Source: Ostreococcus lucimarinus
Lineage: Eukaryota
NCBI GenBank assembly: GCA_000092065.1
Contig: CP000581.1
DNA length: 64,000 nt
Direction: 5' to 3' (one strand)
Positions 8,846 to 47,831 of this stretch are shown in pieces. Numbering within the stretch: position 1 is the first letter of the stretch; each line of letters opens with the position of its first letter. Below the pieces are notes generated by a model, which was not told the DNA's origin, made no database searches, and saw only the letters and a program-made list of their open reading frames with translations. The position numbers and the translations under genes were made by a program.

Positions 8846-9757
8846 CTAATCAAACGACGGCGCGAAGCTCGGCATGGACGCCAATTTCTCCGCGCGCTTT
8901 GGCGCCGCCTGCGTCTTCGATTGGGTCTTCTTCTTTTTCGCCTTCGGCAGGTTCACGGGAATGCCCGGCAACATTAAAGGTTCGCCGGCCTCGATCGGGG
9001 GTTTCAACGCGCGCTCAACCTTGGTCTTCGTCTTGGTCAACAGCGTCTGCACCGTGGAGCAAATCGTCACCGGCGCCGCCAACGTGGACTCCTCCAACCT
9101 CGTCGCCCCCGCTAAACTCCTCGTGTACTCGCTCGCGCTCGCGCTCATCTCATCTAACTCATCATCGAGCCTCTCTTGCAACAAATGCGCCAGGGCCTCG
9201 TGAATCGCCTCCTTCTCGTCGAAATTTTTAAACACCTCTGGCGCCCCCGCGCCCATTCGCGACATCGGCGCGTTCGTCGTGTCCCTCGCCCCCACCACGA
9301 AGCTCTCCGCGTCCATCATTTTCTTCACGATCCGTCCCACCGCGTGCGCTCCGATCGCATCGCACGCCTCGATCGTCTCCGCCAGCGCCTCCAGCGCCCT
9401 CGGGCACGCGTACGCTCGCACCGGCTCTCCCTCCAATTGCGTCTCGTGCAGCGCGTACACGCAGTACACCCCCGTCGCTCGCGTCGCCAGCGTCTTCCCC
9501 GTCCGCGCGTACTTCATCGCGCAATCGTACGCGCACTGCACGTACCCGTTGTACGTCTGCTGCGCCGGCTTTCCCAGGTGCACGTTCGAGAACCGTCGCT
9601 CGCACCAGCGCGCTTTGAAATTCGCAAACGACATCGCCGCCGCGTACGCGTCGTCGCCGTCGTCGCGCGCGCGGTCGACGTCGCGCGCGTGGCGCTCGAT
9701 GAGATCCATGACGTCGATCTCCACGCCGCGGAGCTCGCGCTCGTCGCACGCGGGCAT
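8846..9757 (-). CDS. Conserved hypothetical protein (303 aa), Cys-containing globular N-terminal domain + K-rich tail
   Basis: ORF 8846..10780 is antisense to JmjC gene above 9848; in-frame ATG at 9755-9757 gives MPACDERELRGVEIDVMDLIERHARDVD...SFANFKARWCERRFSNVHLGKPAQQTYNGYVQCAYDCAMKYARTGKTLATRATGVYCVYALHETQLEGEPVRAYACPRALE...KAKKKKTQSKTQAAPKRAEK; no family recognised. Confidence 0.4.
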   Translation of the reverse strand: MPACDERELRGVEIDVMDLIERHARDVDRARDDGDDAYAAAMSFANFKARWCERRFSNVHLGKPAQQTYNGYVQCAYDCAMKYARTGKTLATRATGVYCVYALHETQLEGEPVRAYACPRALEALAETIEACDAIGAHAVGRIVKKMMDAESFVVGARDTTNAPMSRMGAGAPEVFKNFDEKEAIHEALAHLLQERLDDELDEMSASASEYTRSLAGATRLEESTLAAPVTICSTVQTLLTKTKTKVERALKPPIEAGEPLMLPGIPVNLPKAKKKKTQSKTQAAPKRAEKLASMPSFAPSFD

Positions 9758-35200: not shown

Positions 35201-36338
35201 TAGCCTGCACGCGTTTCACCGATCGACCGAGGAGAATCTTCGTGCGACCCTCCATGAGGGTCTTGAGCCGTTCCTTCTCCACATTACGCGCCTTGCCCGT
35301 CTTCACGGACACCGCAAGTGAGTTGTCCAACCACAACGTGAGCTGCACAAATGGGACTTCTTTTTCGAGCAACAGTTCAACAGTGTTGACCATGGCTTCG
35401 CCGTCGGATTCAGCCGCATCTTCGTCCCCAGGGGCGGAAATATTCAACAACATGACGAGCTTCTTGTGCCCTTTTCGCCGTTTTGCATATAGCTCGCTCG
35501 TTTCGTTTTCCCAAATCCCCTCTCGCGAGTACGTGACGAGCTCGTACGGATTATCGGGCCAGAGCCGAGCGAACACCGTTCGTAAATCTCCCATCGTCGC
35601 ACACTGTGGTAACAAGACGTAAATCTTACTCTTTAGCGCTGCTTGTTCGTCTGCCGAGCCGCTCCCCACACGCATTCCACCCGCCGCCGCCAACGCACTT
35701 GTCACCATTAGCACCGTCCGAAGCGTCAAAGCCGTCGTCGGTTGCGTCCAATGGTCCCAAGTCGGCAACATCACCGGCATCTCAGCCGTCGCGTTCCCAG
35801 GATTCTCCACGCTCCGTCCCGCCGCCAACGCCTTGGTCGAGGTTGGAAACGTCGTCGCCGCCCGCAACGACGGCACCGGCACGTGCATCGCCACGCTCGG
35901 CGTTTCGCCGACCACGAGCTTATTCGCCGGAAAGCTCGTCACCTCATTCACGATGACATCCGTCACCTCTTTTACGACCAGCGTCGTCGACGTCTCGCCG
36001 CCGAGGTGCCAACGCACGACGGCTTCGAGCGCGTCCATCTTCGACCCAGGCGCGACGCTCGGTGGCGCCGGCGCTTGGTACACCGTCACCAGCGACGACG
36101 CGCGCCGAACGAAGCCCTCGATCGGGGCCATCCAATCGTTCATCGCCTCACCGGCGCGCGCGCCGTCGTCGTCGTCGTCCGTCTTGGCTGTCCGCCGCAC
36201 CGACGTCGACGTCGACCGACGCGTCGCGCCCGCGCGTCGCCGCGCGCGCGCCGTCGCGCCCGCACCGCGCGCCGTCGGCGTCGTCGACGTCGACGACGAC
36301 GCCGCGCCGTGCGACGCCGCGCGCGCGCAGGGCGTCAT
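32256..36338 (-). CDS. IRE1/RNase L-family protein: long coiled-coil-rich N-terminal region + Ser/Thr kinase-like domain + C-terminal KEN endoribonuclease domain
   Basis: ORF 32256..36905 overlaps the + strand UMP-CMP kinase gene above ~36680, so start placed at in-frame ATG 36336-36338 (alternative 36143). Kinase: GVGSAGTYVFRG, AVAVKRI, ITHNDLKPENLLV (HRD->HND), KIADVGLG (DFG->DVG). KEN: HPLLWDDDTVLENLSDL ~ IRE1 HPFFW..; DLQDWQRQIEPALLSRV; YRAGFADLLRFCRNVHEHPPETNKEL ~ human IRE1 [27 protein letters not shown]; FGVDL...TFPGLPLAVHE ~ FVCYFTSRFPHLLAHT. No signal peptide, no TM, no lumenal beta-propeller. Confidence 0.7.
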   Translation of the reverse strand: MTPCARAASHGAASSSTSTTPTARGAGATARARRRAGATRRSTSTSVRRTAKTDDDDDGARAGEAMNDWMAPIEGFVRRASSLVTVYQAPAPPSVAPGSKMDALEAVVRWHLGGETSTTLVVKEVTDVIVNEVTSFPANKLVVGETPSVAMHVPVPSLRAATTFPTSTKALAAGRSVENPGNATAEMPVMLPTWDHWTQPTTALTLRTVLMVTSALAAAGGMRVGSGSADEQAALKSKIYVLLPQCATMGDLRTVFARLWPDNPYELVTYSREGIWENETSELYAKRRKGHKKLVMLLNISAPGDEDAAESDGEAMVNTVELLLEKEVPFVQLTLWLDNSLAVSVKTGKARNVEKERLKTLMEGRTKILLGRSVKRVQARKSVLRAFEAAQTDPQGRALIVLEEALKEARALGAMQDEGEKLMRDIRSKASAAEELALANALRAACLQVPMDVQALQATYARAEQFLGNATDVAEDVQSSLDEFDDVDEAAASMSYDPDPFAAVIDSIADEGGSKKKKSARSALTAAVIGAERALRADALESDLRAALADETSRSVESVPRLENLLLQAAKLASNGPPLTQEGAAKLNTLVSRVQSRATALQDMEGARAALLEAMRPSANGIDQAVGGITSEDVKVLESALSRARSSAWPWQLDELIEKAERVLVRWRRLERLETAILSRSRTELRLALEESQRDPESTDVDMRRAKAVLSELEAESALEGGDQRLRAYFAASKVAWATGTVTPESAQMLLTLRESLDITQAEHEQIQRMANAASGLVKPSKSSTPKMSGMSSKKPVRFAGRDNGVRGPLFESAETELMASSDSEDFEDVKLAWANAVPDEDGVGEMTDDTSDGTSGWRRVGESIIYNEEEVIGVGSAGTYVFRGYVRHTSRARHAVAVKRIARPPGEKGRDLVQLVEREVELMTALNQSPLVPFFHCWGITSSNVFIAQELCPESLREHIARQPNLLAAKRIKLLKGVAEGIAWLHDDGKTQGCITHNDLKPENLLVTSNGKVKIADVGLGVRLRKEEGDSDQYSLGTFSKYGISIVLAGRAPEILARKPLTPAADIWAMGVVFFYVLTGFNSPFGEDPNVKPSDDEILNGRYNLQRLMNANDMPPRRAIEARHLLSAMLSPNPAMRPTAEGVLNHPLLWDDDTVLENLSDLHAGSAKLQTSLTSVLQSVNTKALLGGDSERGALLAAVSMDLQDWQRQIEPALLSRVVNFAQRNGDGVPHSSDANNHKQKPPRGQSSEQSTKPYRAGFADLLRFCRNVHEHPPETNKELAPLLRKLADADALPFGVDLDASARSYTRDQRRAIFAAYVTLTFPGLPLAVHECAAAVAHPSSPSRPNQAASKTQNSFPS

Positions 36339-36678
36339 CGTCGCGGTCGCGCGTCGGTGTGTACCGAACACAGCGACGCGCGAACGCGAAAGATGTTCCG
36401 ACGATGCGCAACGACCGCGGCTCGAGAGCTCGCGCGGGCGCGCCAACGCGCGAAAGCGATCGCGGTGCGCGCGTTGAAGCGTCGAACGCGCGCGAACGCG
36501 ACGCACGCGAACGCGTGAAGGGGAATGATTGAAAGACACGGGGACGCGCGGACGTTCGATCGACGACGACTGACGACGCTGACGGCGCGCGATGCGCGAT
36601 GCGTGGACGCAGGAGAGCGCGACGAGCGCGATGGTATCGATCGATGCGCCGATGGGGTCATCGGGGCGGGCGTGGGTG

Positions 36679-37398
36679 ATGATGCCGCGAACAGCGAGGC
36701 TGGCGGCGACGACGACGTTCGCGAGCGCGGCGGCGTTCGCGGCGTCGGCGACGTCTGCGGCGTGCATGGGCGCGAGTGAGACTAAAGTCGCGAGCGGTGA
36801 GGACGGTGATGCGAATGTGAAGGAAGCGAAGCCGACGGGGACGCCGACGGTGGTTTTCGTGCTCGGCGGTCCGGGCGCGGGGAAGGGAACGCAGTGCGCG
36901 AACATCGTTCGCGACTACGCCTTCGTGCACTTGTCCGCAGGAGACTTGCTCCGCGCGCACATGAAAAGCGGGAGCAAAGATGGAAATATGGTGGCAGAGA
37001 TGATAAAACAAGGTCAGATCGTGCCGAGCGAGGTGACGGTCAATTTGCTCTTGGAAGCGATGCGCGCTAGCGGAAAGGATCGATTTTTAATCGATGGGTT
37101 CCCGCGAAACAAGGAAAATCGCGATGCGTGGGAAACGACCGCGGGCTTCGATTGCGATTTTGTTCTATTTTTCGACTGCCCAGAGGAAGTCATGACAGAG
37201 CGTTTACTCGGCCGTAACGAGGGTCGAACGGACGACAACATTGATACCATCAAGAAGCGTTTCAAGACGTTTCGCGAGAGTTCCATGCCGGTGATCAACT
37301 ACTACGACAGCTTGAACAAGGTTTGCAGCGTCAACAGCGACCAATCGCCCGAAGATGTGTACGCGCAAACTAAAGAGTATTTCTCGAAGTTCGCTTGA
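36679..37398 (+). CDS. UMP-CMP kinase (adenylate kinase family) with organellar-type presequence
   Basis: ORF 36592.. overlaps kinase-KEN gene; ATG-ATG at 36679 ([29 protein letters not shown] presequence; alt ATG 36766). [37 protein letters not shown] (P-loop), [27 protein letters not shown]...[17 protein letters not shown]. Confidence 0.8.
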
Positions 37399-37512: not shown

Positions 37513-39336
37513 TCAATCAACTTTTCGCGATGCGCGAGCTGACCAACCGATCGGCCCGAAAGAGTTCTTGTTTGGCGCTACGCGTTGCTCTCGCGGGTTG
37601 CTTACTTCTAATTCAGCGACAAACTGACCATGTTCCGAAGTCTTGATGCGCGAGTCGGGCAGCTTCCAACCTCTCGCGATGAAGGCGCGCAACTCAGGCC
37701 CTGAAAACTGAGTTTTCAGACGACTATTACGGTCCCTGGGCGGTAGGGCGTCGTCGTCGCGCTCGAGACCTTTGGCGATGAACTCTGCGCGATTTTTCCA
37801 GCTCTTGGCGAGTTCAGCTTGCACGGCGACTTCCCGCGCGAATCTATCATGCTCTCGCGTATCAAAGGACGACAAATGCGCAATTTCCTTCTTGAGGGCC
37901 TCGATTTCTAAGTTTTTCGCGTTCAAGACTTTGTTCAGGTCGTCAACTTTGCTGCTCGTCTCCGCCATGACGAGCTCTATTTTCTTTTCGCCGAACGTTC
38001 GGGTTTCTTGCGCTTGGGCAATGCTTTCCTTCACCTTACGTTCAGCCATGTGTTCGGAGCTCTCTGCTTCGGCTTTGGACTTCGACGCGGATTTCACATT
38101 ATCGGATACAATCGAACGAAGTTGTTTTATCTCCTCATTCTGCGCCGTAACTTGCTCCTGAAGTGATACAATGATTTCAGTCGCTTTTGTCTTGGCGGCG
38201 GTGAGCGTAGCGTATTCCTCCAAAATTTCGTTCTGGCGGAAGAGCTGAGACTCTGCGGTCTCGGCACGAACGACAGCGGCAGAGATGAGCTGCTCACTCG
38301 TACGTTTCTGCTCTTCGGCGCGCTCTTCCGCTGCCTTTTGCGCGATTCTGGCGTTTTTGACGGCCAACTCGGACGATTCCTTCGCATTCTCGATGCGTTT
38401 GCTGATGGTTTGTTCTGTTTGCGTGATTTTGGATTCGGCTAGCGTAGCGCGCGTGATGGCTTCCGTCGCCCGAATGGTCATGTCTTCTACTGTAGCCATC
38501 AGCGCGAAGATTTCTTGCTCCTTGGCGGTGAGAGTATTCTCCAACGTGTTCTTCTCGTCGCGGGTGGTCTCAAACTGGGTCATGTAAGTTCTGAGTGCCT
38601 CATTTTGTTCCTCGAGTGCCGTGATATTGTCCGTCAGCGCCGTAATCTTCGCACTCTCCGCCTCCATGGCGCTCTCGTGCGACGCTTCCCACATCGCAAT
38701 TTGGTCCTTCGTCTCTGCTTGCACCGTCGCCTCAAGCTTCTTCATGAGCTTGGCTGCGGCTTCCGCTTGTTCCGTCGCGAGCTTTTGCGCCGAGTCGGCA
38801 TCTTGCCGAAATCTTGTGATTTTCTGCTGCTGTTCCGCGTCCAAAGCCTTGCGTACTCGACGTTCGATCTCGCCTTCAACTTGAGCGTACATCTGAGCGC
38901 GAGCGCCTTCGAGACTTTCCATCGCCTTGACTTTAACGCGTTCAATCTCAATACGGAGCGCCACATTTTCATCACGCACGCCGTCGATTGTCGCAGTCAA
39001 CGCGCTCTCCAGCTGCTTCTTATCCATCATCACCTGATCGAGCAACACCGACAGCGCCTTGTTCCTTCGTTCAAGCGTCTGCGACTCGTCGCTTGCCACC
39101 TCCAACTTTCTCATCGCGTCAATCTCGCTCATCGTGCTCTGCTCCCACGCCTCGTCCATCGCGTTGGAATCCATGGGCACCCTGGACGTCGTCTCCGCCG
39201 ATTCCTCGCGCGAACGTCGCGCGGCGCTCCAACCTCGCCGGCGTCCCACAGTCCCCGGCGCCATCTTTCCGGTTGCTTTCGTCCTATTGCGCGATCCGAC
39301 CGCGCGCGCGCCGTGCAATTCCATTTTGCGCATCAT
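37513..39336 (-). CDS. Long coiled-coil protein (607 aa), possibly cytoskeletal/flagellar-associated; lower GC than flanks
   Basis: ATG-ATG at 39336; almost entirely E/K/A/Q/L-rich heptad-like sequence (LEEQNEALRTYMTQFETTRDEKNTLENTLTAKEQEIFALMATVEDMTIRATEA...); globular C-terminal ~70 aa (FSGPELRAFIARGWKLPDSRIKTSEHGQFVAELEVSNPREQ). No family recognised. Confidence 0.5.
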   Translation of the reverse strand: MMRKMELHGARAVGSRNRTKATGKMAPGTVGRRRGWSAARRSREESAETTSRVPMDSNAMDEAWEQSTMSEIDAMRKLEVASDESQTLERRNKALSVLLDQVMMDKKQLESALTATIDGVRDENVALRIEIERVKVKAMESLEGARAQMYAQVEGEIERRVRKALDAEQQQKITRFRQDADSAQKLATEQAEAAAKLMKKLEATVQAETKDQIAMWEASHESAMEAESAKITALTDNITALEEQNEALRTYMTQFETTRDEKNTLENTLTAKEQEIFALMATVEDMTIRATEAITRATLAESKITQTEQTISKRIENAKESSELAVKNARIAQKAAEERAEEQKRTSEQLISAAVVRAETAESQLFRQNEILEEYATLTAAKTKATEIIVSLQEQVTAQNEEIKQLRSIVSDNVKSASKSKAEAESSEHMAERKVKESIAQAQETRTFGEKKIELVMAETSSKVDDLNKVLNAKNLEIEALKKEIAHLSSFDTREHDRFAREVAVQAELAKSWKNRAEFIAKGLERDDDALPPRDRNSRLKTQFSGPELRAFIARGWKLPDSRIKTSEHGQFVAELEVSNPREQRVAPNKNSFGPIGWSARASRKVD

Positions 39337-39882: not shown

Positions 39883-40542
39883 CTATCCTTGTCTGGAGGC
39901 GAAGAAATTCATCACGCGTCCGAGCAAGTCTGATAACACGTAAATCCCGAGCAACGCGAGGATCGGCGATCGCGCGAACCCGAGCGCGCCCGACGCGACG
40001 CTCTCGTCCACTACCTTGGCTTCCTCGGCGTCCAAATTCGCCGGAACGTATTTGACCGAAACCGAGTTCACGCAGTGTCGCTCCATCGTCGCCGAGAATC
40101 CCTCGTTTTCAAACACATGCCCGAGATGGCCATCACACGCCGCGCACATGATCTCCACCCGTCGCATCCCGAACGCGTTATCGATCTCCGTCTTCAACGC
40201 GCCCGCGTAGCACTTGTCAAACGCCGGCCAGCCGCACCCGCTGTCAAACTTCGATTTGGCGCTGTACAGCGGCGTACCGCAACCGCGGCACACGAAGTGT
40301 CCTTCGCTCGGGTAGAACTTATCGTACTCTCCAGTGCGCGCGGGTTCGGTGCCTTTTTGTCGCAGCACTTGGAACGCTTGCGCGTCGAGCTCTTGCTTCC
40401 ACTCGCTCTCGGGTTTTTCGACGCGAGTCACGTCGACGCGCTTGGACATGGCGCGCGCGACGCGCGCGCGCGCGCGCGTGGGCTTGATGAGAACGCGAGT
40501 GAAGTCAGCGCGCGCGCGCGAGACGTGCGACGCGAAGGACAT
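39883..40542 (-). CDS. MSRB: Peptide methionine-R-sulfoxide reductase MsrB (SelR domain) with presequence and C-terminal hydrophobic tail
   Basis: ATG 40542. SelR core: CRGCGTPLYSAKSKFDSGCGWPAF ... IMCAACDGHLGHVFENEGF ... RHCVNSVSV (two CxxC zinc motifs, catalytic Cys in RxCxN; Cys codon, not TGA). C-terminus SPILALLGIYVLSDLLGRVMNFF is a predicted TM helix. Confidence 0.85.
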   Translation of the reverse strand: MSFASHVSRARADFTRVLIKPTRARARVARAMSKRVDVTRVEKPESEWKQELDAQAFQVLRQKGTEPARTGEYDKFYPSEGHFVCRGCGTPLYSAKSKFDSGCGWPAFDKCYAGALKTEIDNAFGMRRVEIMCAACDGHLGHVFENEGFSATMERHCVNSVSVKYVPANLDAEEAKVVDESVASGALGFARSPILALLGIYVLSDLLGRVMNFFASRQG

Positions 40543-40639: not shown

Positions 40640-43600
40640 CTACAAGTCTAAAGCTAAGGCAGCGAACGCGGCGTAGACGAGGAAAAATATGAGAAATGTG
40701 CCTGTGCGAGCGGCGGAGTGATAGTACACGCAAGCTTCGACGGAAGTCGAACCGGCGGAGCTGTTGAAATGGTACAGCGGACATCGCTCGCACAGAGTTA
40801 CGACGGTCGCGCCCGAGGTGACGCCGTAGGTACCCTCCGGACACAGCGTGCAGTTCGCGAGACCGAGGGTGGAGGCGTATGTGCCGGGCGTACACGCATC
40901 ACATGCAGCTTTGCCGCCGGCCGAGGCGCGTCCAAGCGGGCACGGACGACAGACGGTGTCGTCGCCCGTCGTCGCCCCTTGAATCGCGCCGTATGTGCCC
41001 GGGCGGCACGGCTTGCACGTGGACAAACCTGTGACGTCGGAATACGTGCCCGCGGGACATGGGTCGCACAGCTGCGATGCTTCCGTGTCGGAATACGTGC
41101 CAGCGGCGCATTCGATGCACGTCGCAACGCTCGTGCCGCCTTGCTCAGTGCCGTACGTGCCGGCTGGACAACCATCGCAGATCGCCATGCCAGTTTGGCC
41201 CGCGTAAGTTCCAGGTTCACAGTCGCTACAAGATACGGATGCGTCGAGCGAGTACTGACCGATCGCACACTCCAAACAATTTTCGACCGTCGGACTCGCT
41301 TCGACGATGGAATATGTTCCCGCGACGCAATCGATACATCCTGTGGCGGCTGTTGTGTTTGAATACGTGCCCGCGACGCAGTTGAGACATTCAGCCAAAC
41401 CTTCAATGTCTGAGTACGTACCCGTCGGACACGGTTGTAGATTCACCGCCGAAGTGGCACCTTCATCCGGAAGGAAATAGCCAGCGGGCGCAGCTTTGCA
41501 CTCGAGTAAGCCCTCCTCATCCCCGTACGTACCCGCAGGGCACCGAAGACAGTCGACTTGACCATCCGCGGGGTTGTACGTACCGACGGCGCACAATGTG
41601 CACGCCGATACGCTCGTCGCCCCTTCAGCGGCGGAATACGATCCCGCTGGGCAAAGTTTACAGCTCTCCGCGGGAATACCGCTCCCCGGCGCTATGTCAG
41701 AGTAACTCCCTGGCCCACACAACGTACACGCGTCACTTCCTTCATTTATCGATACAGAGCCCAGCGGGCAGTCCTCGCAATCGGTCTTGGCGACGCTTCC
41801 CGTCGTCGCAAGAGCCGTGCCTGCTGGGCACTGCTCACAAGTTTCGCGGCCCTCAGTTGAACTGTAGCTACCAGCGGCACAGGGAACACATACGGTGCTA
41901 CCGAGATCATTCGTAGCGGTCCCAAGCGGGCATGGCAGACATTGATCGACGCTGGTCGCGCCAGTGTCCGCGAGATATGTACCTTTCGGGCACAAGTCAC
42001 ACGTGGGTTCGCCGGCATCGGCTTGATACTGCCCCGCGGGACATTCCTTGCACGGTTCACCATCTGCTGCATAAAAGCCGGCTGGACACACATCACAATC
42101 ATCCTCGCTCACGCTGGCGTAATTTATTGAATACTTTCCAGGCGGACATGTCGTACACTCTGACGTGTCTGTGCGATCGGCTGGACCGTATCGGCCAGGC
42201 GGGCAATCGAGGCACGCACCCATACCCGCATGCGGTGCATATTTACCCGTACCGCAATTTACGCAATCACCTTCCGCAACCGCACCGTCGGTCGCCGTGA
42301 CTTTACCCGCAGGACATGATTTACATAAAGTTTGTCCTTCTTGGTCCTGATACGTACCCGCTTCGCACTTCGTGCAGAACTGATTCAGACCGAGAACTAA
42401 TGTTGACGTCGAGCCAGCGACGGCGGTGTATGTGCCAACTGCGCATTGCTGACATGCATTTTGTAAACTATCTCGTACGATTACGTTTGCCGTTCCAACG
42501 CCGGAATACCCTGCAGGACACTTTGTGCACTCGGTCGCCCCTGCAGTTGCGCTGTACGTACCGTCTGGACACGACAGGCATACACTTTGGCCCATATCCG
42601 ATGTATAAGTTCCCACTGCGCATGGTACGCAGTCATCGACGGATGACATTGTAGCCGTAGCGTCGCCAGTTGTCCCCGCTGGACACGGTGTACACTCGAC
42701 AGCGCCACCTTCTGAGTAAAATCCGATATCGCACGGGTCGCACGCCGACGCACCAGGCGCCGAAGCATCTGTGCCCGCAGGACACGGCTCACATTGCGAG
42801 GCTCCTGTACTCGCAGCAAATTTACCAGCTGGACAGCTCACGCAGTCGCTCGATCGCTGCGCCCCGACGGCCCCGTTGAACGTGCCTATTGGACACCCCG
42901 TGCATGATGCTTGTCCTGTGAGAACTTGATACGAACCCGTCCCGCACGGCGTGCATGATGAGCTTCCCTCCGCCGCGCTGTAGCTCCCTGCCGGGCAAGA
43001 TTCGCAGAATGAAGATGCGAACGCCCCTTCAAACGGAACGAAGGTCCCAGCAGGACATTTAGAGCATACTGATAGACCTGTTGTCGCCGCGTAAGCTCCG
43101 CTTTCACACAGGATACATGATGAACTCGCAGATTCGTTTTGATACTGACCCAAAGGACACGCAGAACAGACGAACGAAGTGAAGTCATTCGTGTAACCTC
43201 CAGCCGAACACGCCGAACACTGTCCCGTTTCAGTATCACGCTCGTACCCAACGTCACACGAAACGCGTAGAGCTAAAGAAAAACCACCCACAGCGACAAC
43301 CATGGTGACTTGTTGCACCTCAGCGACGATGACGGGCGCGGCGACGTACTCCACTTCGCCGTACAACCCCACGTCAGCCGTTGAAAGATATCCGCCCTTG
43401 AACGGCCGAGTGGCACCCATGACTAACGCTTCGAATTCTGCGTTCGATCCACCAACTCGACCGCTCGCATCGAGCGTATCTCGAAACGCATAGAATAATG
43501 TCGACGATGCGCCGCTCTGCAACTCTGTGCCGTAATTGGCTAACAGGCGACGTCTACTGGCACTGATCGCGGTTTGTTGCCATCCTCGCAGCGTCAAAGT

Positions 43601-45415
43601 CAAATTGTACGAGGCGTCCGACGCCGGTCGGGGCTCTAATCCAAGTTGACCAAACTCATTCGATCCCCATGTGAATACCTCACCGTAATCACTCACCGCT
43701 ACAGTGTGCGATCGTCCACATGACACCCAATGTATCTTTACGTTAGCATCAGCGAGCGCGGTCACTTTCGTCGGTATAAATCTACTGACACGGTCATTGT
43801 GACCAAGTTGCCCGAACGTATTGAGCCCCCACGTGTATACCTCGCCAGTGGATGCGACTACTGCCGCGTGGAAGTCTCCAGCTGCGATGAACACCGCTTG
43901 CACGCCCGCGTCTGCCAATGTCGCCAAAACTTTCGGCGCCGCTGAGCGAAAAGGATCCAGACCATCCGTTCCGAATCCGAGCTGGCCGCTTTCGCCGTAA
44001 CCCCACGTGTACACCAAACCACCGTTCGCCCCATTTGCGTCCGCTGCGCTAATCGCCATGGAGTACCGCGCGCTCGCTGCAATCGCTGAGAATTTCACGG
44101 CTGACGGCACCTCTTGCGGTGACTGCGTGGTGGGCATTTCTGGGGCGTCTGGGAACGCGCTGCATGCGCCGGTGCCGTCTCCATATTTACTCACTTCGCA
44201 CGGTTTGAGTCCTAACTGACCATCGATGTTACTACCCCACGCCCAAATCGAGCCGGTGGAAGTCAGCACGAGGGTGTGCGCTAGGCCAGCCGCGACCTCC
44301 ACCGCCGTGACGGAGCCAAATCCATTGTTCACGACACGCGTCGGCAACCCCTTGTTTTTCAAAAATGTTTCCGAGCCGACGTACTGCAACGTCCCTGGCA
44401 TCCAGCCGCGACCGAGTTGACCGAGATCGTCGTTACCCCACGTAAAAACATGGCCGGAAGCGCTCACCGCCACGGCGTGTCTGACCCCCACCGCGACTTT
44501 TGTCATGCCTTCGAGCGCGCCGATGCGAACGGGATTCACAGCCAAGCTCGAAGCGTCAGGCGTTTTCGTCTCCAAGTTGAGAACGCCACTGGAATCGAAA
44601 CCCCATCCCCAAACGTATCCGGTACCGTATTCAACGCCCATCACCGTTTTGTCTGAGGCCGAAATATACGTGAACTGTTTCACCAACTCAAAATTTGCGT
44701 TCGTTACGGGCTGCGATTTCGGCGCAGTGTCACCGAACGCGAGCTGCGCCATGGCGTTATCGCCCCATCCGTACACAACTGCGCTAGAATTCGCGAGTTT
44801 CTTAAACTGCCCGTTATTGGCCGCATCAGTTCCAGTCAACGGCAACGTCAGCGTCGGGTCCCACCAATCCACGGCGTCCACCGTGCTCACGTCTGTTCTC
44901 GACACCCACTTCGCCGTGCACGCCCGCACAAACCTCGACACCGAGTCCTTGTACACCTCTATCGTCACAGTGATCGTACTCTCATCACTACACGCACCAA
45001 CACTATCGATCAATCGATACGTTATCGTCGTCGTGAACTCTCGTCTCGTCTCCGTCTCGTCGCACGGTGCTACGAAGTACGCCGTCTGCGACCCCGCCAA
45101 CCGTCGCGCCGACACCGTCCCGCTCGCCAGCGCGGTGCAATAATTCGCCGCCGCGTCCAACGCGGTGTTCTGATCGTCCTTATACACCGATCCCGTCCCC
45201 GGCAACGACGTGATCAACGCCGACAGCGTGTGCGTATCGTCGCTATCCGTCCCCGCGAGCGTCAGCGTCGCTCGCGAACCCGCGACGACGCGCACGCTCG
45301 ACGCCGACGGCACCACCGGCGTCGCGCCGCGCGCGACGGACGCGACGCCCGCCACGGCGACGAGCGCGGCGACGAGCGCGCTCGACGCGACCGCGTGGCG
45401 TCGGTGTCGACCCAT
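40640..45415 (-). CDS. Giant cell-surface protein: signal peptide, 7-blade RCC1-like beta-propeller, ~30 tandem ephrin-receptor-like/TNFR-type Cys repeats, hydrophobic C-terminal tail
   Basis: ORF to 45457; signal-peptide ATG at 45413-45415 (MGRHRRHAVASSALVAALVAVAGVASVARG). RCC1 blades: VYGWGDNAMAQLAFG, YVWGWGFDSSGVLN, VFTWGNDDLGQLGRG, IWAWGSNIDGQLGLK, VYTWGYGESGQLGFG, VYTWGLNTFGQLGHN, VFTWGSNEFGQLGLE. Then ~800 aa of C-x2-C-x-x-G-[TS]-[YF] units (CTKCPAGYSG, CQQCAVGTYT, CKSCPAGKVT, CVNCGTGKYA, CLDCPPGRYG ...). Ends ...ARTGTFLIFFLVYAAFAALALDL*. Confidence 0.7.
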   Translation of the reverse strand: MGRHRRHAVASSALVAALVAVAGVASVARGATPVVPSASSVRVVAGSRATLTLAGTDSDDTHTLSALITSLPGTGSVYKDDQNTALDAAANYCTALASGTVSARRLAGSQTAYFVAPCDETETRREFTTTITYRLIDSVGACSDESTITVTIEVYKDSVSRFVRACTAKWVSRTDVSTVDAVDWWDPTLTLPLTGTDAANNGQFKKLANSSAVVYGWGDNAMAQLAFGDTAPKSQPVTNANFELVKQFTYISASDKTVMGVEYGTGYVWGWGFDSSGVLNLETKTPDASSLAVNPVRIGALEGMTKVAVGVRHAVAVSASGHVFTWGNDDLGQLGRGWMPGTLQYVGSETFLKNKGLPTRVVNNGFGSVTAVEVAAGLAHTLVLTSTGSIWAWGSNIDGQLGLKPCEVSKYGDGTGACSAFPDAPEMPTTQSPQEVPSAVKFSAIAASARYSMAISAADANGANGGLVYTWGYGESGQLGFGTDGLDPFRSAAPKVLATLADAGVQAVFIAAGDFHAAVVASTGEVYTWGLNTFGQLGHNDRVSRFIPTKVTALADANVKIHWVSCGRSHTVAVSDYGEVFTWGSNEFGQLGLEPRPASDASYNLTLTLRGWQQTAISASRRRLLANYGTELQSGASSTLFYAFRDTLDASGRVGGSNAEFEALVMGATRPFKGGYLSTADVGLYGEVEYVAAPVIVAEVQQVTMVVAVGGFSLALRVSCDVGYERDTETGQCSACSAGGYTNDFTSFVCSACPLGQYQNESASSSCILCESGAYAATTGLSVCSKCPAGTFVPFEGAFASSFCESCPAGSYSAAEGSSSCTPCGTGSYQVLTGQASCTGCPIGTFNGAVGAQRSSDCVSCPAGKFAASTGASQCEPCPAGTDASAPGASACDPCDIGFYSEGGAVECTPCPAGTTGDATATMSSVDDCVPCAVGTYTSDMGQSVCLSCPDGTYSATAGATECTKCPAGYSGVGTANVIVRDSLQNACQQCAVGTYTAVAGSTSTLVLGLNQFCTKCEAGTYQDQEGQTLCKSCPAGKVTATDGAVAEGDCVNCGTGKYAPHAGMGACLDCPPGRYGPADRTDTSECTTCPPGKYSINYASVSEDDCDVCPAGFYAADGEPCKECPAGQYQADAGEPTCDLCPKGTYLADTGATSVDQCLPCPLGTATNDLGSTVCVPCAAGSYSSTEGRETCEQCPAGTALATTGSVAKTDCEDCPLGSVSINEGSDACTLCGPGSYSDIAPGSGIPAESCKLCPAGSYSAAEGATSVSACTLCAVGTYNPADGQVDCLRCPAGTYGDEEGLLECKAAPAGYFLPDEGATSAVNLQPCPTGTYSDIEGLAECLNCVAGTYSNTTAATGCIDCVAGTYSIVEASPTVENCLECAIGQYSLDASVSCSDCEPGTYAGQTGMAICDGCPAGTYGTEQGGTSVATCIECAAGTYSDTEASQLCDPCPAGTYSDVTGLSTCKPCRPGTYGAIQGATTGDDTVCRPCPLGRASAGGKAACDACTPGTYASTLGLANCTLCPEGTYGVTSGATVVTLCERCPLYHFNSSAGSTSVEACVYYHSAARTGTFLIFFLVYAAFAALALDL

Positions 45416-45691
45416 CTCGCTCGTTCGATGTTCGTTCGAGTCGTTAGCTCCGCGCATCGTCGCCGTCTCGCGACGTCTCGCGCGCGCCGCGCGCGATGCG
45501 CGCGCGCGCGCGAGCGCCGCACGCGAGCATGTTTTCGTACGACGGCGCGCGCGGGGCGATTGGACGCGACGCGCGCGGTGATTTGACGCGCAAAGGCCCG
45601 CGGCTCGAATCTTCTCGAAGCCGCGTCAAAGTCAAAGTCAAAGTCGACGCCGCGACGCGACGCGCCGGTTATACGCTAAAACGCTAATACG

Positions 45692-46714
45692 CTAATGCTC
45701 GCACCCGGGAACGCGACACGACCACTTACACCCTTCGAGCATGAACCCCGGGTTCTTGTCGCATTCGCCCGTGTTGGCCCAGCCGCGACACTGGTCGTGC
45801 GCGTCTTCGCATCCGGGCGTCGCGCTCGCCTCGGGCGGTTTCTGCCAGCGGTACGGCTCGGCGTGCACCCACACGGTGGCGGTCCACTTCACCCCCGCAA
45901 CGACGGGACAACCGACATGCAACGCGCGGTGATCAATCTTCCCGTTCGGGTCCACGGACCAAAATATTAAGCCGTCGCCTCGGCGCGGTTTCATCGCCAC
46001 GCGATGCTCCGCGCACTTCGACCAACTCGTCCCCTCCGCCATCTTCGGATCGATCCACTCGCTATCGGGAAACGCCGTCTCTCCCCCCGCCTCGGGTTCT
46101 TCCAAGTACAACAACACCGTCGCCACGCGTTTACCGCCGTCTTTCGACAACTCTCTCCCGCTCAGCGAATCCTCCGCGCCCACGTCTTCGTGCGCGTCGT
46201 ACTTTTCCCCCACCCGGTATTCCAACACTTGCATGTCCTCGTTGTGCGTCCAGGGCAGCATCGTCACCGCGCTCAGCGCGTCGTATATCTCTCGCACCAC
46301 CTCCTCGTCGCGATTTAAAAACGTCTGCTTCGACGTGCGAATCGGATCGACTTTCGACTCGCCCGTGACGCTGTCGACGACGGTGCTTCGCCGGACCCGC
46401 GCGCGCGTCGCCCGCAGCACCGCCTCGCACTGCGCCTCCGTCAGCGCGTCTCGCAGCGCGAACGCGCGCGGGTACCACGACAGCGGTTCGACGCGCGTCC
46501 GCGCTCGCGCCCGCGCGTCCGACAGCGTCGGTCGCGCGCCGTCCGTCGTCGTCCGTCGTCGCGCGCGCGCGCCGTCGAACCCGTGCGTCGTCACGCGCGC
46601 GCCCAGCGCGCCCAGCGCGAGCGCGCACGCGAGCGCGAGCGCGCGCGCCGTCCACCGCGCGCGCGCGCGCGACCGACGTCGACGCGAGACGTCGACGGAC
46701 GCCGCGCGAAGCAT
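45692..46714 (-). CDS. Prolyl 4-hydroxylase alpha-like 2OG-Fe(II) oxygenase with signal anchor and C-terminal ShK (ShKT) domain
   Basis: ORF to 47203 but only in-frame ATG before the signal anchor is 46712-46714 ([39 protein letters not shown]). P4Hc core: YDAHEDVG...GGKRVATVLLYLEEPEAGGETAFP...HRALHVGCPVVAGVKWTATVW (HxD...H + basic residue); tail CEDAHDQCRGWANTGECDKNPGFMLEGCKWSCRVPGC = six-Cys ShK fold. Confidence 0.8.
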   Translation of the reverse strand: MLRAASVDVSRRRRSRARARWTARALALACALALGALGARVTTHGFDGARARRRTTTDGARPTLSDARARARTRVEPLSWYPRAFALRDALTEAQCEAVLRATRARVRRSTVVDSVTGESKVDPIRTSKQTFLNRDEEVVREIYDALSAVTMLPWTHNEDMQVLEYRVGEKYDAHEDVGAEDSLSGRELSKDGGKRVATVLLYLEEPEAGGETAFPDSEWIDPKMAEGTSWSKCAEHRVAMKPRRGDGLIFWSVDPNGKIDHRALHVGCPVVAGVKWTATVWVHAEPYRWQKPPEASATPGCEDAHDQCRGWANTGECDKNPGFMLEGCKWSCRVPGCEH

Positions 46715-47831
46715 GGATTGGATTGGATGCGACGCGACGCGACGTGACGCCGCGAGAGCGCGACGCGCGATGTCGCGCGCGCGCGAGGCGCCGACGACGT
46801 TCTGTGGACTGCCGACGCTGCGACCGGACGCGCAGGCGAGGACGCGCGCGGCGACGCCCGAGACGCGCGGCGACGCGCGCGACGACGCGACCCGGACGCG
46901 CGTGCGAAAACTGCTGCTCGTGCGCCACGGCGCCAAGGCGAAGACGACGCGAGGGAAACGAGACGCGGAGGAGATTCGACGCGCGTGCGAGGCCGCGAAC
47001 GTCGACGTCGAGACGGCGACGACGGAACGCGCGGGACACGGCGTCGAACTGGTGCGAGACGCGGATCTGAGCGACGTGGACGCGATCGGGGTCGTGGGAG
47101 GGGACGGGACGCTTCGCGAGGCGGTGCAGGGATGGATCGAGCGCGAGGCGAGCGGGCGGGGCGACGGGAGGCGAACGCCGATTTTCGCGTTTCCGTGCGG
47201 CACGGGGAATAATTACGCGCGAGATCTCGGGGTGTTCACCGTCGCGGACGCGATGGCGAAGTTGAAAGCCGGGAACGCGCGTCCGGTGGACGCGGTTCGA
47301 GTGTCGGACGGCGTCGGTAACGATACGATTTCGATCAACGTCGTGACGTGGGGCATGGCGCGCGACGCGGCGGAAACGGCGGAGGGCATGCGTTGGATGG
47401 GCGGTTTGCGTTACGACGTCGCCGGTTTGATTCACATCTTGAAGAATAAAAAGAATAACGGCATCATCGGCGTCAGCGATTCTCTCGAGGGCGAGATCGT
47501 GGAGGAATCGAATGATTATTTGATGATGTTCGCGCAGAACACGCGTTGCAGCGGCAGAGCTTTCGCGTTCACGCCGCTGGCGCAACTCGACGACGGATTT
47601 TTCGACGTCGTCGTGTGTAACAAAGGAGGCCCGATGCACACGAAGGCGCTCTTCGACGCCACGAAAACTGGTGGCGGTCACGTCGAAGATCGTAACGTAT
47701 CATACGTTAAAGCTAAGCGGTTGTCGCTGAAAACAGCGGCGGCCGAGAGCGTCGGCATTGACGGCGAAGTCACCGTTCCAACGCCCGTTCATCTGACGGC
47801 GCTCGAGGGAGTTTTCACTACGTTTCGCTAA
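46713..47831 (+). CDS. Lipid kinase with DAGK catalytic domain (sphingosine kinase / acylglycerol kinase-like)
   Basis: ORF 46233..; ATG 46713 (MDWIGC...; alternative ATG 46773 MSRAREAP...). KLLLVRHGAKAK..., DAIGVVGGDGTLREAVQGWIER (GGDG motif), IFAFPCGTGNNYARDLG (GTGN), accessory domain ...IDGEVTVPTPVHLTALEG. Confidence 0.65.
   Translation: MDWIGCDATRRDAARARRAMSRAREAPTTFCGLPTLRPDAQARTRAATPETRGDARDDATRTRVRKLLLVRHGAKAKTTRGKRDAEEIRRACEAANVDVETATTERAGHGVELVRDADLSDVDAIGVVGGDGTLREAVQGWIEREASGRGDGRRTPIFAFPCGTGNNYARDLGVFTVADAMAKLKAGNARPVDAVRVSDGVGNDTISINVVTWGMARDAAETAEGMRWMGGLRYDVAGLIHILKNKKNNGIIGVSDSLEGEIVEESNDYLMMFAQNTRCSGRAFAFTPLAQLDDGFFDVVVCNKGGPMHTKALFDATKTGGGHVEDRNVSYVKAKRLSLKTAAAESVGIDGEVTVPTPVHLTALEGVFTTFR

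What the first reader, a model, noticed from the sequence alone, without database searches (positions are those of the whole stretch)
40640..45415. 1.6k-aa surface protein fusing an extracellular RCC1 propeller to ~30 ephrin-receptor-like cysteine repeats, ending in a bare hydrophobic tail
The ORF has a clear signal peptide. It carries seven consecutive RCC1 blades with the diagnostic W-G-x-[ND]-x-x-G-Q-L-G motif. It then has ~800 aa of C-x2-C-P-x-G-[TS]-[YF] units (Ephrin_rec_like / TNFR-Cys type), and terminates in ARTGTFLIFFLVYAAFAALALDL with no cytoplasmic residues. That pattern fits a GPI-anchor signal or a tail-less type-I anchor. RCC1 propellers are classically intracellular Ran-GEFs, so an extracellular one tethered to a receptor-like Cys-repeat stalk is an unusual architecture. 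Candidate roles are adhesion or a virus/bacteria-interaction protein. The gene is also markedly less GC-rich than its neighbours. An ORF this long and repetitive is an obvious candidate for copy-number or length polymorphism.
Basis: partly seen in the sequence, partly recalled or inferred. Interest (0 to 1): 0.65.

Follow-up and report, generated by a model that had tools for sequence, protein, structure and literature searches.

The report
Stalked RCC1-propeller surface protein of Ostreococcus
This is a real, intronless gene of the tiny marine green alga Ostreococcus. It encodes a large cell-surface protein: a binding "head" (an adhesin-type domain plus a seven-bladed propeller) held on a long, disulfide-rich stalk whose 43 units are the same in every relative examined.

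Summary
Window 40640-45457 (minus strand) is one 1605-aa ORF. Its parts are a signal peptide, a cadherin/Ig-like domain, a seven-bladed RCC1-like propeller, 43 CxxC half-units (21 Pfam Ephrin_rec_like matches) and a bare hydrophobic C-terminus.

The organism is an Ostreococcus lucimarinus-like alga. Syntenic orthologues exist in nine Ostreococcus clusters. One is O. tauri XP_022838323.1, auto-named "Insulin-like growth factor binding protein, N-terminal". Homologues also occur on Micromonas-type contigs.

- **Architecture:** an extracellular RCC1-like propeller followed by TNFR-like Cys repeats is the ectodomain plan of plant CRINKLY4 receptor kinases. Secreted RCC1 propellers are also common in bacteria.
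- **Length variation:** there is none. The unit count is fixed within each cluster, 95 of 97 cysteines are invariant, and the stalk is collinear unit for unit with Micromonas.
- **Selection:** dN/dS is 0.11-0.24 in propeller and stalk, so selection is purifying.
- **Anchor:** Micromonas-type homologues keep 9-11 polar residues after the hydrophobic segment. A type I anchor is therefore probably ancestral. The Ostreococcus tail fits a GPI signal or a tail-less TM anchor.

The best reading is a non-signalling, membrane-tethered adhesion or recognition protein with a fixed-length rigid spacer. No ligand or function was shown. Interest is moderate.

The parts
40640..45457 (-). Complete intronless CDS, 1605 aa plus stop codon (40640-40642)
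   Evidence: ORF list. Pfam domains cover most of its length. It differs at 6 aa from metagenomic protein P0001. Orthologues are 1556-1662 aa.
45326..45457 (-). Signal peptide, aa 1-44 (alternative start M15 at 45415). It has a basic n-region, a hydrophobic core and an A-R-G|A-T-P cleavage-type site.
   Evidence: Hydropathy peak at aa 20-46. The same layout, ending ...A-R-A|A-T-P-T-V-P, is kept in the orthologues although the sequence is only 34% identical. No SignalP-type tool was available.
44954..45325 (-). N-terminal cadherin/Ig-like beta-sandwich domain, aa 45-168. It is the fastest-evolving part.
44783..44953 (-). Linker, aa 169-225, with conserved motifs SRFVRAC.AKW and NGQF.K. It has no confident fold.
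   Evidence: Invariant columns in alignment A1. pLDDT is 26-37.
43253..44782 (-). Seven-bladed RCC1-like beta-propeller, aa 226-735. The last blade is interrupted by an insertion.
   Evidence: Pfam RCC1, RCC1_2 and WD40_RLD. PDB sequence hits are UVR8 (3e-48), HERC2, RPGR and RCC1. Foldseek gives target-normalised TM-score up to 0.82 to whole RLDs. Seven WG motifs are present.
43358..43624 (-). Family-specific insertion of about 90 aa in the last blade (aa ~612-700). It is conserved from Ostreococcus to Micromonas-type homologues and has no Pfam match.
   Evidence: Low pLDDT (22-48) with two short helices. No Pfam hit. Motifs LTLRGW, RRRLL and D.SGR are conserved in the alignment.
43547..43555 (-). 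Invariant tribasic RRR (aa 635-637), the only such site in the mature protein. It is a candidate kexin/furin-type processing site (hypothesis only).
   Evidence: Regex scan. Invariant R592-R594 in A1. Kept as KKRR, RRAR and RRRR in L019, L022 and L020. Cleavage was not tested.
40718..43252 (-). Cys-rich stalk, aa 736-1580. It holds 43 CxxC half-units (21 Pfam Ephrin_rec_like matches), two degenerate units at aa ~1320-1356 and a conserved sequon HFN[ST][ST] in the last unit.
   Evidence: The unit count and all stalk Cys are conserved. The stalk is collinear with L019 and L022. It resembles the Cys-rich repeats of Chlamydomonas Mst1 (8tx1, E=2e-26) and ELAPOR1.
40643..40717 (-). C-terminal anchoring signal, aa 1581-1605. 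It reads S-A-A (candidate omega site), R-T-G-T spacer, a hydrophobic run of about 16-19 aa, then D-L and stop.
   Evidence: All nine Ostreococcus orthologues have HS[AG][AST], then 3-6 polar residues, then a 15-19-aa hydrophobic run with 0-2 residues after it. The sequence itself is only 28% conserved.

Best explanation
The gene encodes a secreted surface glycoprotein of Ostreococcus that stays tethered to the plasma membrane.

After the signal peptide is removed, the protein is held by its C-terminal hydrophobic signal. In Ostreococcus this is either exchanged for a GPI anchor or kept as a tail-less single-pass anchor.

From the membrane outward:
1. A rigid rod of 43 disulfide-stapled TNFR/Ephrin-receptor-like half-units. 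If the ~11 Å per disulfide rung measured in the homologous repeats of Chlamydomonas Mst1 applies, the rod is roughly 45-50 nm long.
2. A seven-bladed RCC1-like propeller carrying a family-specific insertion.
3. A cadherin/Ig-like tip domain.

With no cytoplasmic residues it cannot signal by itself. I therefore read it as a stalked adhesion or recognition molecule that presents a propeller-plus-Ig 'head' at a fixed distance from a naked cell surface. The stalk length is functionally constrained, since its unit count is unchanged from Ostreococcus to Micromonas.

Shown: gene integrity, domain architecture, topology signals, orthology and synteny within Ostreococcus, fixed unit number, and purifying selection.

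Inferred: surface location, type of anchor, rod length, a binding function and the ligand (unknown).
For: Architecture.

Topology: there are only two strongly hydrophobic segments, at the two ends. Both are kept in character but not in sequence in nine orthologue clusters.

Single gene: O. tauri RefSeq XP_022838323.1 is 1569 aa, and O. mediterraneus UniRef protein A0A7S0KFK0 is 1518 aa.

Orthology: the gene order PRORP, DAG kinase, P4H(ShK), this gene, MsrB, coiled-coil, adenylate kinase, protein kinase is conserved in another Ostreococcus lineage.

Fixed stalk:
- 43-45 CxxC units in all species, 95 of 97 Cys invariant, indels of 10 aa or less.
- Constant count within each cluster in at least 70 population variants.
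- The same 43-unit run, collinear, in the Micromonas-type homologues L019 and L022.
- No DNA tandem array.

Selection: dN/dS is 0.11-0.24 for propeller and stalk.

Adhesin-like parts: the tip domain matches intimin and cadherin folds. The longer Micromonas-type N-termini carry bacterial cadherin-like and Big_9 domains.

Rigid disulfide ladder in related repeats: PMC10602792.

GPI feasibility: Ostreococcus has the PIG-A, PIG-M, PIG-V and last-mannose transferases (PMC3797821).

Cryo-tomography of O. tauri saw unidentified 'large macromolecular complexes decorating the outer surface' (PMC1939878).
Against: - No expression, localisation or binding data for this protein were found.
- No GPI or signal-peptide predictor was available.
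- Micromonas-type homologues have 9-11 polar residues after the hydrophobic segment. This favours a plain TM anchor as the ancestral state and weakens the GPI reading.
- The rod length is extrapolated from another protein.
- The AF2 head model is only moderately confident (mean pLDDT 59).
- Purifying selection on average does not exclude a few positively selected sites.
- The tip domain does evolve faster, with dN/dS up to 0.7 on small counts.
Confidence: 0.6

Rival explanations
1. Virus- or bacteria-interaction protein in an arms race. The protein would be the prasinovirus attachment receptor or a decoy, diversifying in sequence and repeat number to escape.
For: It is a large exposed protein on a naked cell that is heavily infected by prasinoviruses, whose host receptor is not identified in the papers read. 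The tip Ig-like domain is the most divergent part, with dN/dS 0.36-0.70. At 55% identity the protein is somewhat more diverged between species than most of its neighbours.
Against: - No length or copy-number variation exists.
- dN/dS is 0.11-0.24 over 90% of the protein.
- The gene sits in a conserved syntenic block. The small outlier chromosome is where nearly all consistently resistance-linked differentially expressed genes map.
- No viral homologues were found.

A conserved protein can still be exploited as a receptor, so this reading is not excluded. It overlaps the main one.
Confidence: 0.12
2. CRINKLY4-like signalling ectodomain. The propeller and TNFR-like module would bind a ligand and signal through a separate co-receptor, because the kinase is missing.
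For: It has the same order of modules as CR4/ACR4: signal peptide, seven RCC1-like repeats, TNFR-like Cys-rich region and membrane anchor (PMC4617170). The same Pfam families, RCC1_2 and TNFR_c6, hit this protein. Micromonas-type homologues keep a short cytoplasmic tail ending in Y-[RH].
Against: - The CR4 signature C(X~10)CWG is absent from all blades.
- There are 43 Cys units rather than one TNFR-like domain.
- There is no kinase, and in Ostreococcus no cytoplasmic residues at all.
- The nearby 1549-aa kinase gene has no TM segment.
- The CR4 study found no candidates in O. tauri or O. lucimarinus by BLASTP.
Confidence: 0.1
3. Structural subunit of an extracellular filament or surface coat, in the manner of the mastigoneme protein Mst1, rather than a binding receptor.
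For: The closest solved relative of the stalk is Chlamydomonas Mst1 (8tx1, E=2e-26). Mst1 is also built from Ig-like domains plus Ephrin-receptor-like Cys-rich repeats and forms a disulfide-laddered filament. The strictly fixed unit number would suit a lattice or ruler.
Against: - No proline-rich stretch was seen on reading the sequence, whereas Mst1 ends in a polyproline-II helix. This was inspection only, not a dedicated scan.
- A membrane anchor is present here.
- Ostreococcus has no flagellum, scales or wall (general knowledge).
- Mst1 has no propeller head.
Confidence: 0.1
4. Intracellular RCC1-type guanine-nucleotide exchange factor, or a UVR8-type UV-B photoreceptor, in line with the best sequence hits of the propeller.
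For: The top PDB hits are UVR8 (3e-48), HERC2, RPGR and RCC1.
Against: - A signal peptide and a C-terminal membrane anchor are present.
- The 89 stalk cysteines in a TNFR-like pattern imply an oxidising, extracellular or luminal environment.
- No UVR8 GWRHT tryptophan motif is present.
- RCC1 propellers are generic interaction scaffolds.
Confidence: 0.02

Closest known systems
CRINKLY4 / ACR4 receptor-like kinases of land plants (ectodomain)
   Same: This is a green-lineage type I surface protein. Its signal peptide is followed by seven RCC1-like propeller repeats, then a TNFR-like cysteine-rich region, then a membrane anchor (PMC4617170). It shows that an extracellular RCC1-like propeller on a Cys-rich stalk is a known plan.
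   Different: CR4 blades are ~39-aa 'crinkly' repeats with a C(X~10)CWG disulfide motif, which is absent here. CR4 has a single TNFR-like domain, not 43 units. It has a cytoplasmic kinase, and it has no N-terminal cadherin/Ig-like domain. Homology between the two was not tested directly because no CR4 sequence was available in the tools.
Chlamydomonas mastigoneme protein Mst1 (PDB 8tx1)
   Same: It is the best solved relative of the stalk (E=2e-26). It is a green-algal extracellular protein combining Ig-like domains with Ephrin-receptor-like Cys-rich repeats that form a ladder of disulfides about 11 Å apart.
   Different: Mst1 polymerises into a flagellar hair and ends in a polyproline-II helix. 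It has no RCC1 propeller. I also believe it lacks a membrane anchor of its own, but that was not checked here. Ostreococcus has no flagellum.
Bacterial multidomain RCC1-repeat proteins ('alpha-tubulin suppressor-like RCC1 family protein' with Ig-like, cadherin-like or LPXTG modules)
   Same: After the orthologues, the next-best hits are bacterial and metagenomic proteins of about 900-2700 aa that combine RCC1 propellers with Ig-like, cadherin-like and LPXTG cell-wall-anchor domains. The giants of 1552-7235 aa are a separate set with no names or context. The Micromonas-type homologues carry bacterial cadherin-like and Big_9 domains.
   Different: None of the roughly 260 top hits outside the family combines RCC1 motifs with eight or more CxxCxxG units. 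The anchoring differs, and the family studied here is eukaryotic and syntenic.
Dictyostelium SibA-type adhesion proteins
   Same: The tip domain nearly reaches the Pfam Ig_SibA threshold (26 against 27 bits, covering 111 of 135 profile positions). From my own knowledge, SibA is a type I adhesion protein with Cys-rich EGF-like repeats near the membrane.
   Different: There is no VWA domain here, SibA has no propeller, and the match is below the cutoff.
ELAPOR1 and TNFR / Ephrin-receptor cysteine-rich domains of animals; Giardia VSP
   Same: The same Cys-repeat superfamily is involved. Pfam TNFR_ELAPOR1_6th scores 5.5e-39, and ELAPOR1 structures score 3e-12.
   Different: There is no Eph ligand-binding, FN3, kinase or SAM domain. 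The VSP model scores 15.5 bits against a cutoff of 31.4.

Membership tests
RCC1-like domain (RLD) superfamily | Seven tandem repeats of about 50-70 aa that fold into a seven-bladed propeller | tested here: met
   Pfam RCC1 at 4.8e-60 and WD40_RLD at 4.8e-69. Seven WG...QL motifs. Foldseek target-normalised TM-score up to 0.82 to whole RLDs.
RCC1 proper (Ran-GEF) | Nuclear or cytosolic location and Ran binding with GEF activity | not testable with these tools
   Activity cannot be tested. The signal peptide and membrane anchor argue against access to Ran.
UVR8 photoreceptor | GWRHT motifs that carry the UV-B-sensing tryptophan triad | tested here: not met
   No GW[RK]HT motif in this protein or in any orthologue.
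Ephrin_rec_like / TNFR-Cys repeat family (PF07699) | Tandem CxxC-containing Cys-rich units that score above the Pfam gathering threshold | tested here: met
   381 bits against a cutoff of 23.1, in 21 stretches. 43 CxxC half-units.
Eph receptor tyrosine kinases | Ephrin ligand-binding domain, FN3 repeats, kinase domain and SAM domain | tested here: not met
   None of these domains appears in the Pfam scan. No residues follow the anchor.
CRINKLY4 family | C(X~10)CWG motif in the propeller repeats | tested here: not met
   Zero matches in this protein and in all homologues. The propeller contains only 3 Cys.
CRINKLY4 family | TNFR-like Cys-rich region between the propeller and the membrane anchor | tested here: met
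   Pfam TNFR_c6, TNFR_ELAPOR1_6th and Ephrin_rec_like lie directly after the last blade. The region is, however, 43 units long.
CRINKLY4 family | Cytoplasmic protein kinase domain | tested here: not met
   The ORF ends 0-2 residues after the hydrophobic segment.
GPI-anchored proteins | N-terminal signal peptide | tested here: met
   By hydropathy and conserved layout only. No SignalP was available.
GPI-anchored proteins | C-terminal hydrophobic run of about 12-20 aa with no hydrophilic tail, preceded by a short polar spacer and small omega, omega+1 and omega+2 residues | tested here: inconclusive
   Met by inspection in all nine Ostreococcus orthologues: HS[AG][AST], 3-6 polar residues, then a 15-19-aa run with 0-2 residues after it. 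The Micromonas-type homologues have 9-11 polar residues after the run. No PredGPI, NetGPI or big-PI was available.
GPI-anchored proteins | The organism has GPI synthesis and transamidase machinery | tested here: inconclusive
   The literature reports PIG-A, PIG-M, PIG-V and the last mannosyltransferase in Ostreococcus and Micromonas (PMC3797821). The transamidase subunits were not checked (one search found nothing useful).
Mastigoneme Mst1 family | C-terminal polyproline-II helix and filament assembly on flagella | tested here: not met
   On reading the sequence I saw no proline-rich tail (inspection only). A membrane anchor is present instead. Only the Cys-repeat part is similar.
Giardia VSP family | Score above the Pfam VSP threshold | tested here: not met
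   15.5 bits against a cutoff of 31.4.
SibA-like Ig domain (PF24619) | Score above the Pfam gathering threshold | tested here: inconclusive

The most novel reading that the evidence does not exclude
The protein is a Mamiellophyceae-wide surface 'spike' whose length is set by an invariant 43-unit ruler. It would mature by cleavage at the conserved RRR site inside the last propeller blade. This would give two non-covalently held chains, as in Notch S1, mucin SEA domains or the GAIN domain of adhesion GPCRs, so that the head could be shed under force. It would serve as the key recognition molecule of these naked cells, either for gamete or cell-cell recognition or as the long-sought conserved attachment site of prasinoviruses. 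It might also represent the pre-kinase ancestor of the plant CRINKLY4 ectodomain.
Probability: 0.1. Interest if true: 0.75.

Novelty: new variant of a known kind. Interest (0 to 1): 0.42.

Why it matters
Ostreococcus and Micromonas are among the most abundant marine picoeukaryotes, and their cells have no wall. Almost nothing is known about the proteins on their surface. Yet that surface is where viruses attach, grazers and bacteria make contact, and mating, if it occurs, must start.

This gene offers a concrete, conserved and genetically tractable candidate for a major surface structure. It may correspond to the unidentified complexes seen by cryo-tomography.

It is also a clear case of a repeat array whose unit number is frozen across genera. 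That points to a 'molecular ruler' role rather than the usual repeat-number plasticity.

Finally, it shows that the 'propeller on a TNFR-like stalk' ectodomain plan of plant CRINKLY4 receptors has a kinase-less counterpart in early-branching green algae.

Tried and rejected
1. Homologue searches in alignment mode, with the propeller/stalk junction (A3) and with the N-terminal region (A4). They returned 1-2 fragments and did not recover the known orthologues. I treat them as uninformative, not as evidence of absence.

2. An exhaustive profile search with the head alignment. The top 150 were swamped by giant multi-propeller proteins. Only the Ostreococcus representative P0005 matched the whole profile. 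More distant family members scoring below 617 bits could not be seen.

3. Scans of viral contigs with the junction alignment and with the stalk. No relatives were found. One call failed on a frame error.

4. A profile search of the N-terminal domain against PDB sequences found nothing. The fold comparison was needed instead.

5. Literature searches for the O. tauri accessions, for 'Insulin-like growth factor binding' with Ostreococcus, and for Ostreococcus with ephrin. None gave a functional study. 'GPI transamidase' with Ostreococcus gave nothing useful. The 'RCC1' hits in a coccolith paper were culture-collection strain numbers.

6. The afdb50 fold library was unavailable.

7. Ideas rejected:
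- UVR8-like photoreceptor: no GWRHT motif.
- Horizontally acquired island, as an explanation for the lower GC: the gene sits in a conserved syntenic block, and its GC is within the range of its neighbours.
- Link to the nearby kinase as a split receptor kinase: that kinase has no TM segment.
Full report
**1. What is in the sequence**

Window 40640-45457 on the minus strand is a single 1605-aa ORF.

Pfam finds three groups of matches:
- Ephrin_rec_like, E=7.7e-117, 21 stretches.
- RCC1, RCC1_2 and WD40_RLD, E=1e-36 to 1e-69.
- The related Cys-rich models TNFR_ELAPOR1_6th, NCD3G and TNFR_c6.

The Cys region is therefore a defined family, not low complexity.

By sequence against the PDB, the propeller part resembles UVR8, HERC2, RPGR and RCC1. 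The Cys part resembles the Chlamydomonas mastigoneme protein Mst1 and ELAPOR1.

My own parsing gives 97 cysteines. Of these, 89 lie in aa 746-1580, arranged as 43 CxxC half-units of 15-26 aa with two degenerate units around aa 1320-1356.

Seven WG...QL blade motifs lie at aa 231, 285, 340, 407, 485, 543 and 597.

Only two strongly hydrophobic segments exist: aa 20-46 and the last 24 residues. The window holds no second gene of this kind.

**2. Organism and gene integrity**

The neighbouring MsrB protein falls in a 90%-identity cluster that includes an Ostreococcus lucimarinus CCE9901 protein. The window is therefore from an O. lucimarinus-like alga.

The protein differs at 6 residues from metagenomic protein P0001. 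Eight further clusters at 51-58% identity have lengths of 1556-1662 aa. Named members of these clusters:
- O. tauri CEF96829.1 / XP_022838323.1, "Insulin-like growth factor binding protein, N-terminal", 1569 aa.
- An O. mediterraneus UniRef protein, A0A7S0KFK0, "TNFR-Cys domain-containing protein", 1518 aa.

These models support a single, intronless gene. An older O. tauri model (OUS42478.1, 1813 aa) wrongly fuses it to MsrB downstream.

In another Ostreococcus lineage the gene order is the same: PRORP, DAG kinase, prolyl-4-hydroxylase with a ShK domain, this gene, MsrB, a coiled-coil protein, adenylate kinase, protein kinase. These are positional orthologues.

No paper on the protein was found.

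**3. Anatomy**

*Head.* A model of aa 44-760 is only moderately confident (pLDDT 59). It still superposes on complete seven-bladed RCC1-like domains.

*Insertion.* The model shows that the last blade is interrupted by a low-confidence insertion of about 90 aa. The insertion has no Pfam match but is well conserved. It contains the only tribasic site of the mature protein, RRR at aa 635-637. This site is invariant in Ostreococcus and is kept as KKRR, RRAR or RRRR in distant homologues. It could be a kexin/furin-type processing site. That is a hypothesis only.

*Stalk.* The stalk follows the last propeller strand directly.

**4. The repeat array is frozen, not plastic**

- All nine orthologue clusters have 43-45 CxxC units.
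- 95 of 97 cysteines are invariant.
- No indel in the stalk exceeds 10 aa.
- At least 70 full-length population variants show a constant unit count within each cluster. Apart from alternative start-codon calls, fragments and a few 1-5-aa differences, their lengths are constant too.
- At the DNA level there is no tandem array. Units share only 62-83% identity over about 30 nt around the CxxCPxGTY motif.
- Nei-Gojobori dN/dS on unsaturated pairs is 0.11-0.15 for the propeller and 0.14-0.24 for the stalk. The tip domain is higher, at 0.36-0.70, on small counts.
- Against another Ostreococcus lineage the protein is 55% identical, while its neighbours range from 33% to 77%. It evolves somewhat fast but is not exceptional.

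The prediction of length polymorphism and of an elevated dN/dS in the Cys region is therefore not borne out.

**5. A wider family**

A metagenome scan with the propeller/stalk junction found homologues 30-35% identical over that 205-aa junction region, on contigs of 66-72% GC and one of 57.5% GC. A neighbouring gene on one of these contigs clusters with a Micromonas pusilla protein.

These proteins are at least 3043 aa and 2318 aa long. They have long N-terminal extensions with bacterial cadherin-like domains, followed by the same propeller with the same insertion.

Most strikingly, they have the same run of 43 CxxC units, collinear unit for unit. The match includes the degenerate unit and the final C.RCP..HFN[ST] unit with its conserved N-glycosylation sequon.

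Their gene neighbourhood differs: phosphoglycolate phosphatase on one side and a SET/MYND-like gene on the other. Strict orthology is therefore not shown.

Their hydrophobic segment is followed by 9-11 polar residues, DDRDYSIYR and RVSETAGGRYH. A type I anchor with a short cytoplasmic tail is probably the ancestral state, and Ostreococcus has lost the tail.

**6. Anchor**

In all nine Ostreococcus clusters the C-terminus reads HS[AG][AST], then 3-6 polar residues, then a hydrophobic run of 15-19 aa, with 0-2 residues after it. The sequence is poorly conserved (28%) but the layout is kept. That is the classical layout of a GPI attachment signal.

Ostreococcus is reported to have the full set of GPI-glycan transferases (PMC3797821). 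However, I had no GPI predictor, the transamidase was not checked, and the Micromonas-type tails argue for a TM origin. I leave GPI versus tail-less TM open, at roughly even odds.

**7. Mechanism**

The protein most likely is a non-signalling, membrane-tethered adhesion or recognition molecule. A cadherin/Ig-like domain and an RCC1-like propeller are both generic binding scaffolds. They are held on a disulfide-stapled rod.

In Mst1 the homologous repeats form a ladder of disulfides about 11 Å apart (PMC10602792). With about 44 rungs, the stalk would be 45-50 nm long. This is an inference.

The invariance of the unit number from Ostreococcus to Micromonas suggests that the distance of the head from the membrane matters.

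Cryo-tomography of O. tauri noted unidentified large complexes on the outer surface (PMC1939878). This protein is a candidate for them, but nothing links the two yet.

Rival readings are given with their evidence in the rivals section: virus receptor in an arms race, CR4-like signalling ectodomain, coat or filament subunit, and intracellular GEF or photoreceptor.

**8. Comparison with known systems**

*CRINKLY4/ACR4.* The closest known plan is the ectodomain of plant CRINKLY4/ACR4 receptor kinases. It has seven RCC1-like 'crinkly' repeats, a TNFR-like Cys-rich domain, a TM segment and a kinase (PMC4617170). This protein fails the CR4 membership tests: no C(X~10)CWG motif and no kinase. That study found no CR4 candidate in Ostreococcus. 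The protein therefore works like a kinase-less CR4-type ectodomain but is not a CR4 member.

*Bacterial RCC1 proteins.* RCC1 propellers combined with Ig-like, cadherin-like and cell-wall-anchor domains are common in bacterial and metagenomic proteins. None of the top hits outside the family, in that search or among the unannotated giant proteins, combines RCC1 motifs with this Cys stalk.

*Other candidates.* It is not a UVR8, an Eph receptor, a Giardia VSP or an Mst1 family member.

**9. GC content**

The gene is 58.6% GC against 62.2% for the window. Its GC3 is low, 60.5% overall and 55% in the stalk. It is not lower in GC than the two genes downstream.

Together with the conserved synteny, this gives no hint of foreign origin.

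**10. Verdict**

It is wrong on length polymorphism and on the arms-race signature. It overstates the uniqueness of the architecture.

The gene is already in databases, but only with automatic names, and it is uncharacterised. The new points are:
- the full architecture;
- the frozen 43-unit stalk shared with Micromonas-type homologues;
- the loss of the cytoplasmic tail in Ostreococcus;
- the conserved tribasic site in the propeller insertion.

Interest is moderate.

Noticed in passing
window 43547-43555 (minus strand), aa 635-637: The only tribasic site (RRR) of the mature protein sits in the low-confidence insertion of the last propeller blade. It is invariant in nine Ostreococcus orthologues and kept as KKRR, RRAR or RRRR in Micromonas-type homologues. 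It may be a proprotein-convertase site.
   Followed up: partly
window 45692-46765 (minus strand): The upstream neighbour is a 2OG-Fe(II) prolyl-4-hydroxylase-type protein with a C-terminal ShK domain. Its adjacency to the surface-protein gene is conserved in another Ostreococcus lineage but not on the Micromonas-type contigs. The invariant mature N-terminus A-T-P-T-V-P of the target might be a substrate. This was not examined.
   Followed up: partly
window 39883-40542 (minus strand) and O. tauri model OUS42478.1: An older O. tauri gene model (1813 aa, 'MsrB domain-containing protein') fuses this gene with the downstream methionine sulfoxide reductase B gene. This looks like an annotation artefact, because the current RefSeq model and all metagenomic calls keep the two genes apart.
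   Followed up: partly
L019:22-9153, L022:1614-8498, L020:2086-8682: The Micromonas-type homologues have about 880 to over 1600 extra N-terminal residues with bacterial cadherin-like and Big_9 domains. The Ostreococcus protein looks like a streamlined version that keeps a single Ig/cadherin-like domain.
   Followed up: partly
L025:2998-7224 and L024: A third homologue type (GC 68-69%, 1408-aa ORF) has the cadherin-like domains and the propeller, but its ORF leaves the frame where the Cys stalk should start. A Cys-repeat ORF lies further downstream (8603-9694). This may reflect an intron, a frameshift or a split gene.
   Followed up: no
window 32256-36905 (minus strand): This is a 1549-aa ORF with a C-terminal protein kinase domain and no TM segment. 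It is part of the same conserved syntenic block and is 75% identical to its counterpart in the other Ostreococcus lineage.
   Followed up: partly
window 40763-40771 (minus strand), aa 1563-1565 within HFNSS: The N-glycosylation sequon HFN[ST][ST] in the last stalk unit, next to the membrane, is conserved in all Ostreococcus and Micromonas-type homologues. The total number of sequons elsewhere varies from 4 to 24 between species.
   Followed up: partly
window 37513-39336 (minus strand): This 607-aa coiled-coil protein has no Pfam family. It is the least conserved gene of the block, at 33% identity between Ostreococcus lineages.
   Followed up: no
window-wide, e.g. 40718-41362 (+), 45692-47203 (-), 46131-47681 (-): Many long overlapping ORFs on both strands are by-products of the 62% GC content. 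ORF length alone is not evidence of a gene in this window.
   Followed up: no
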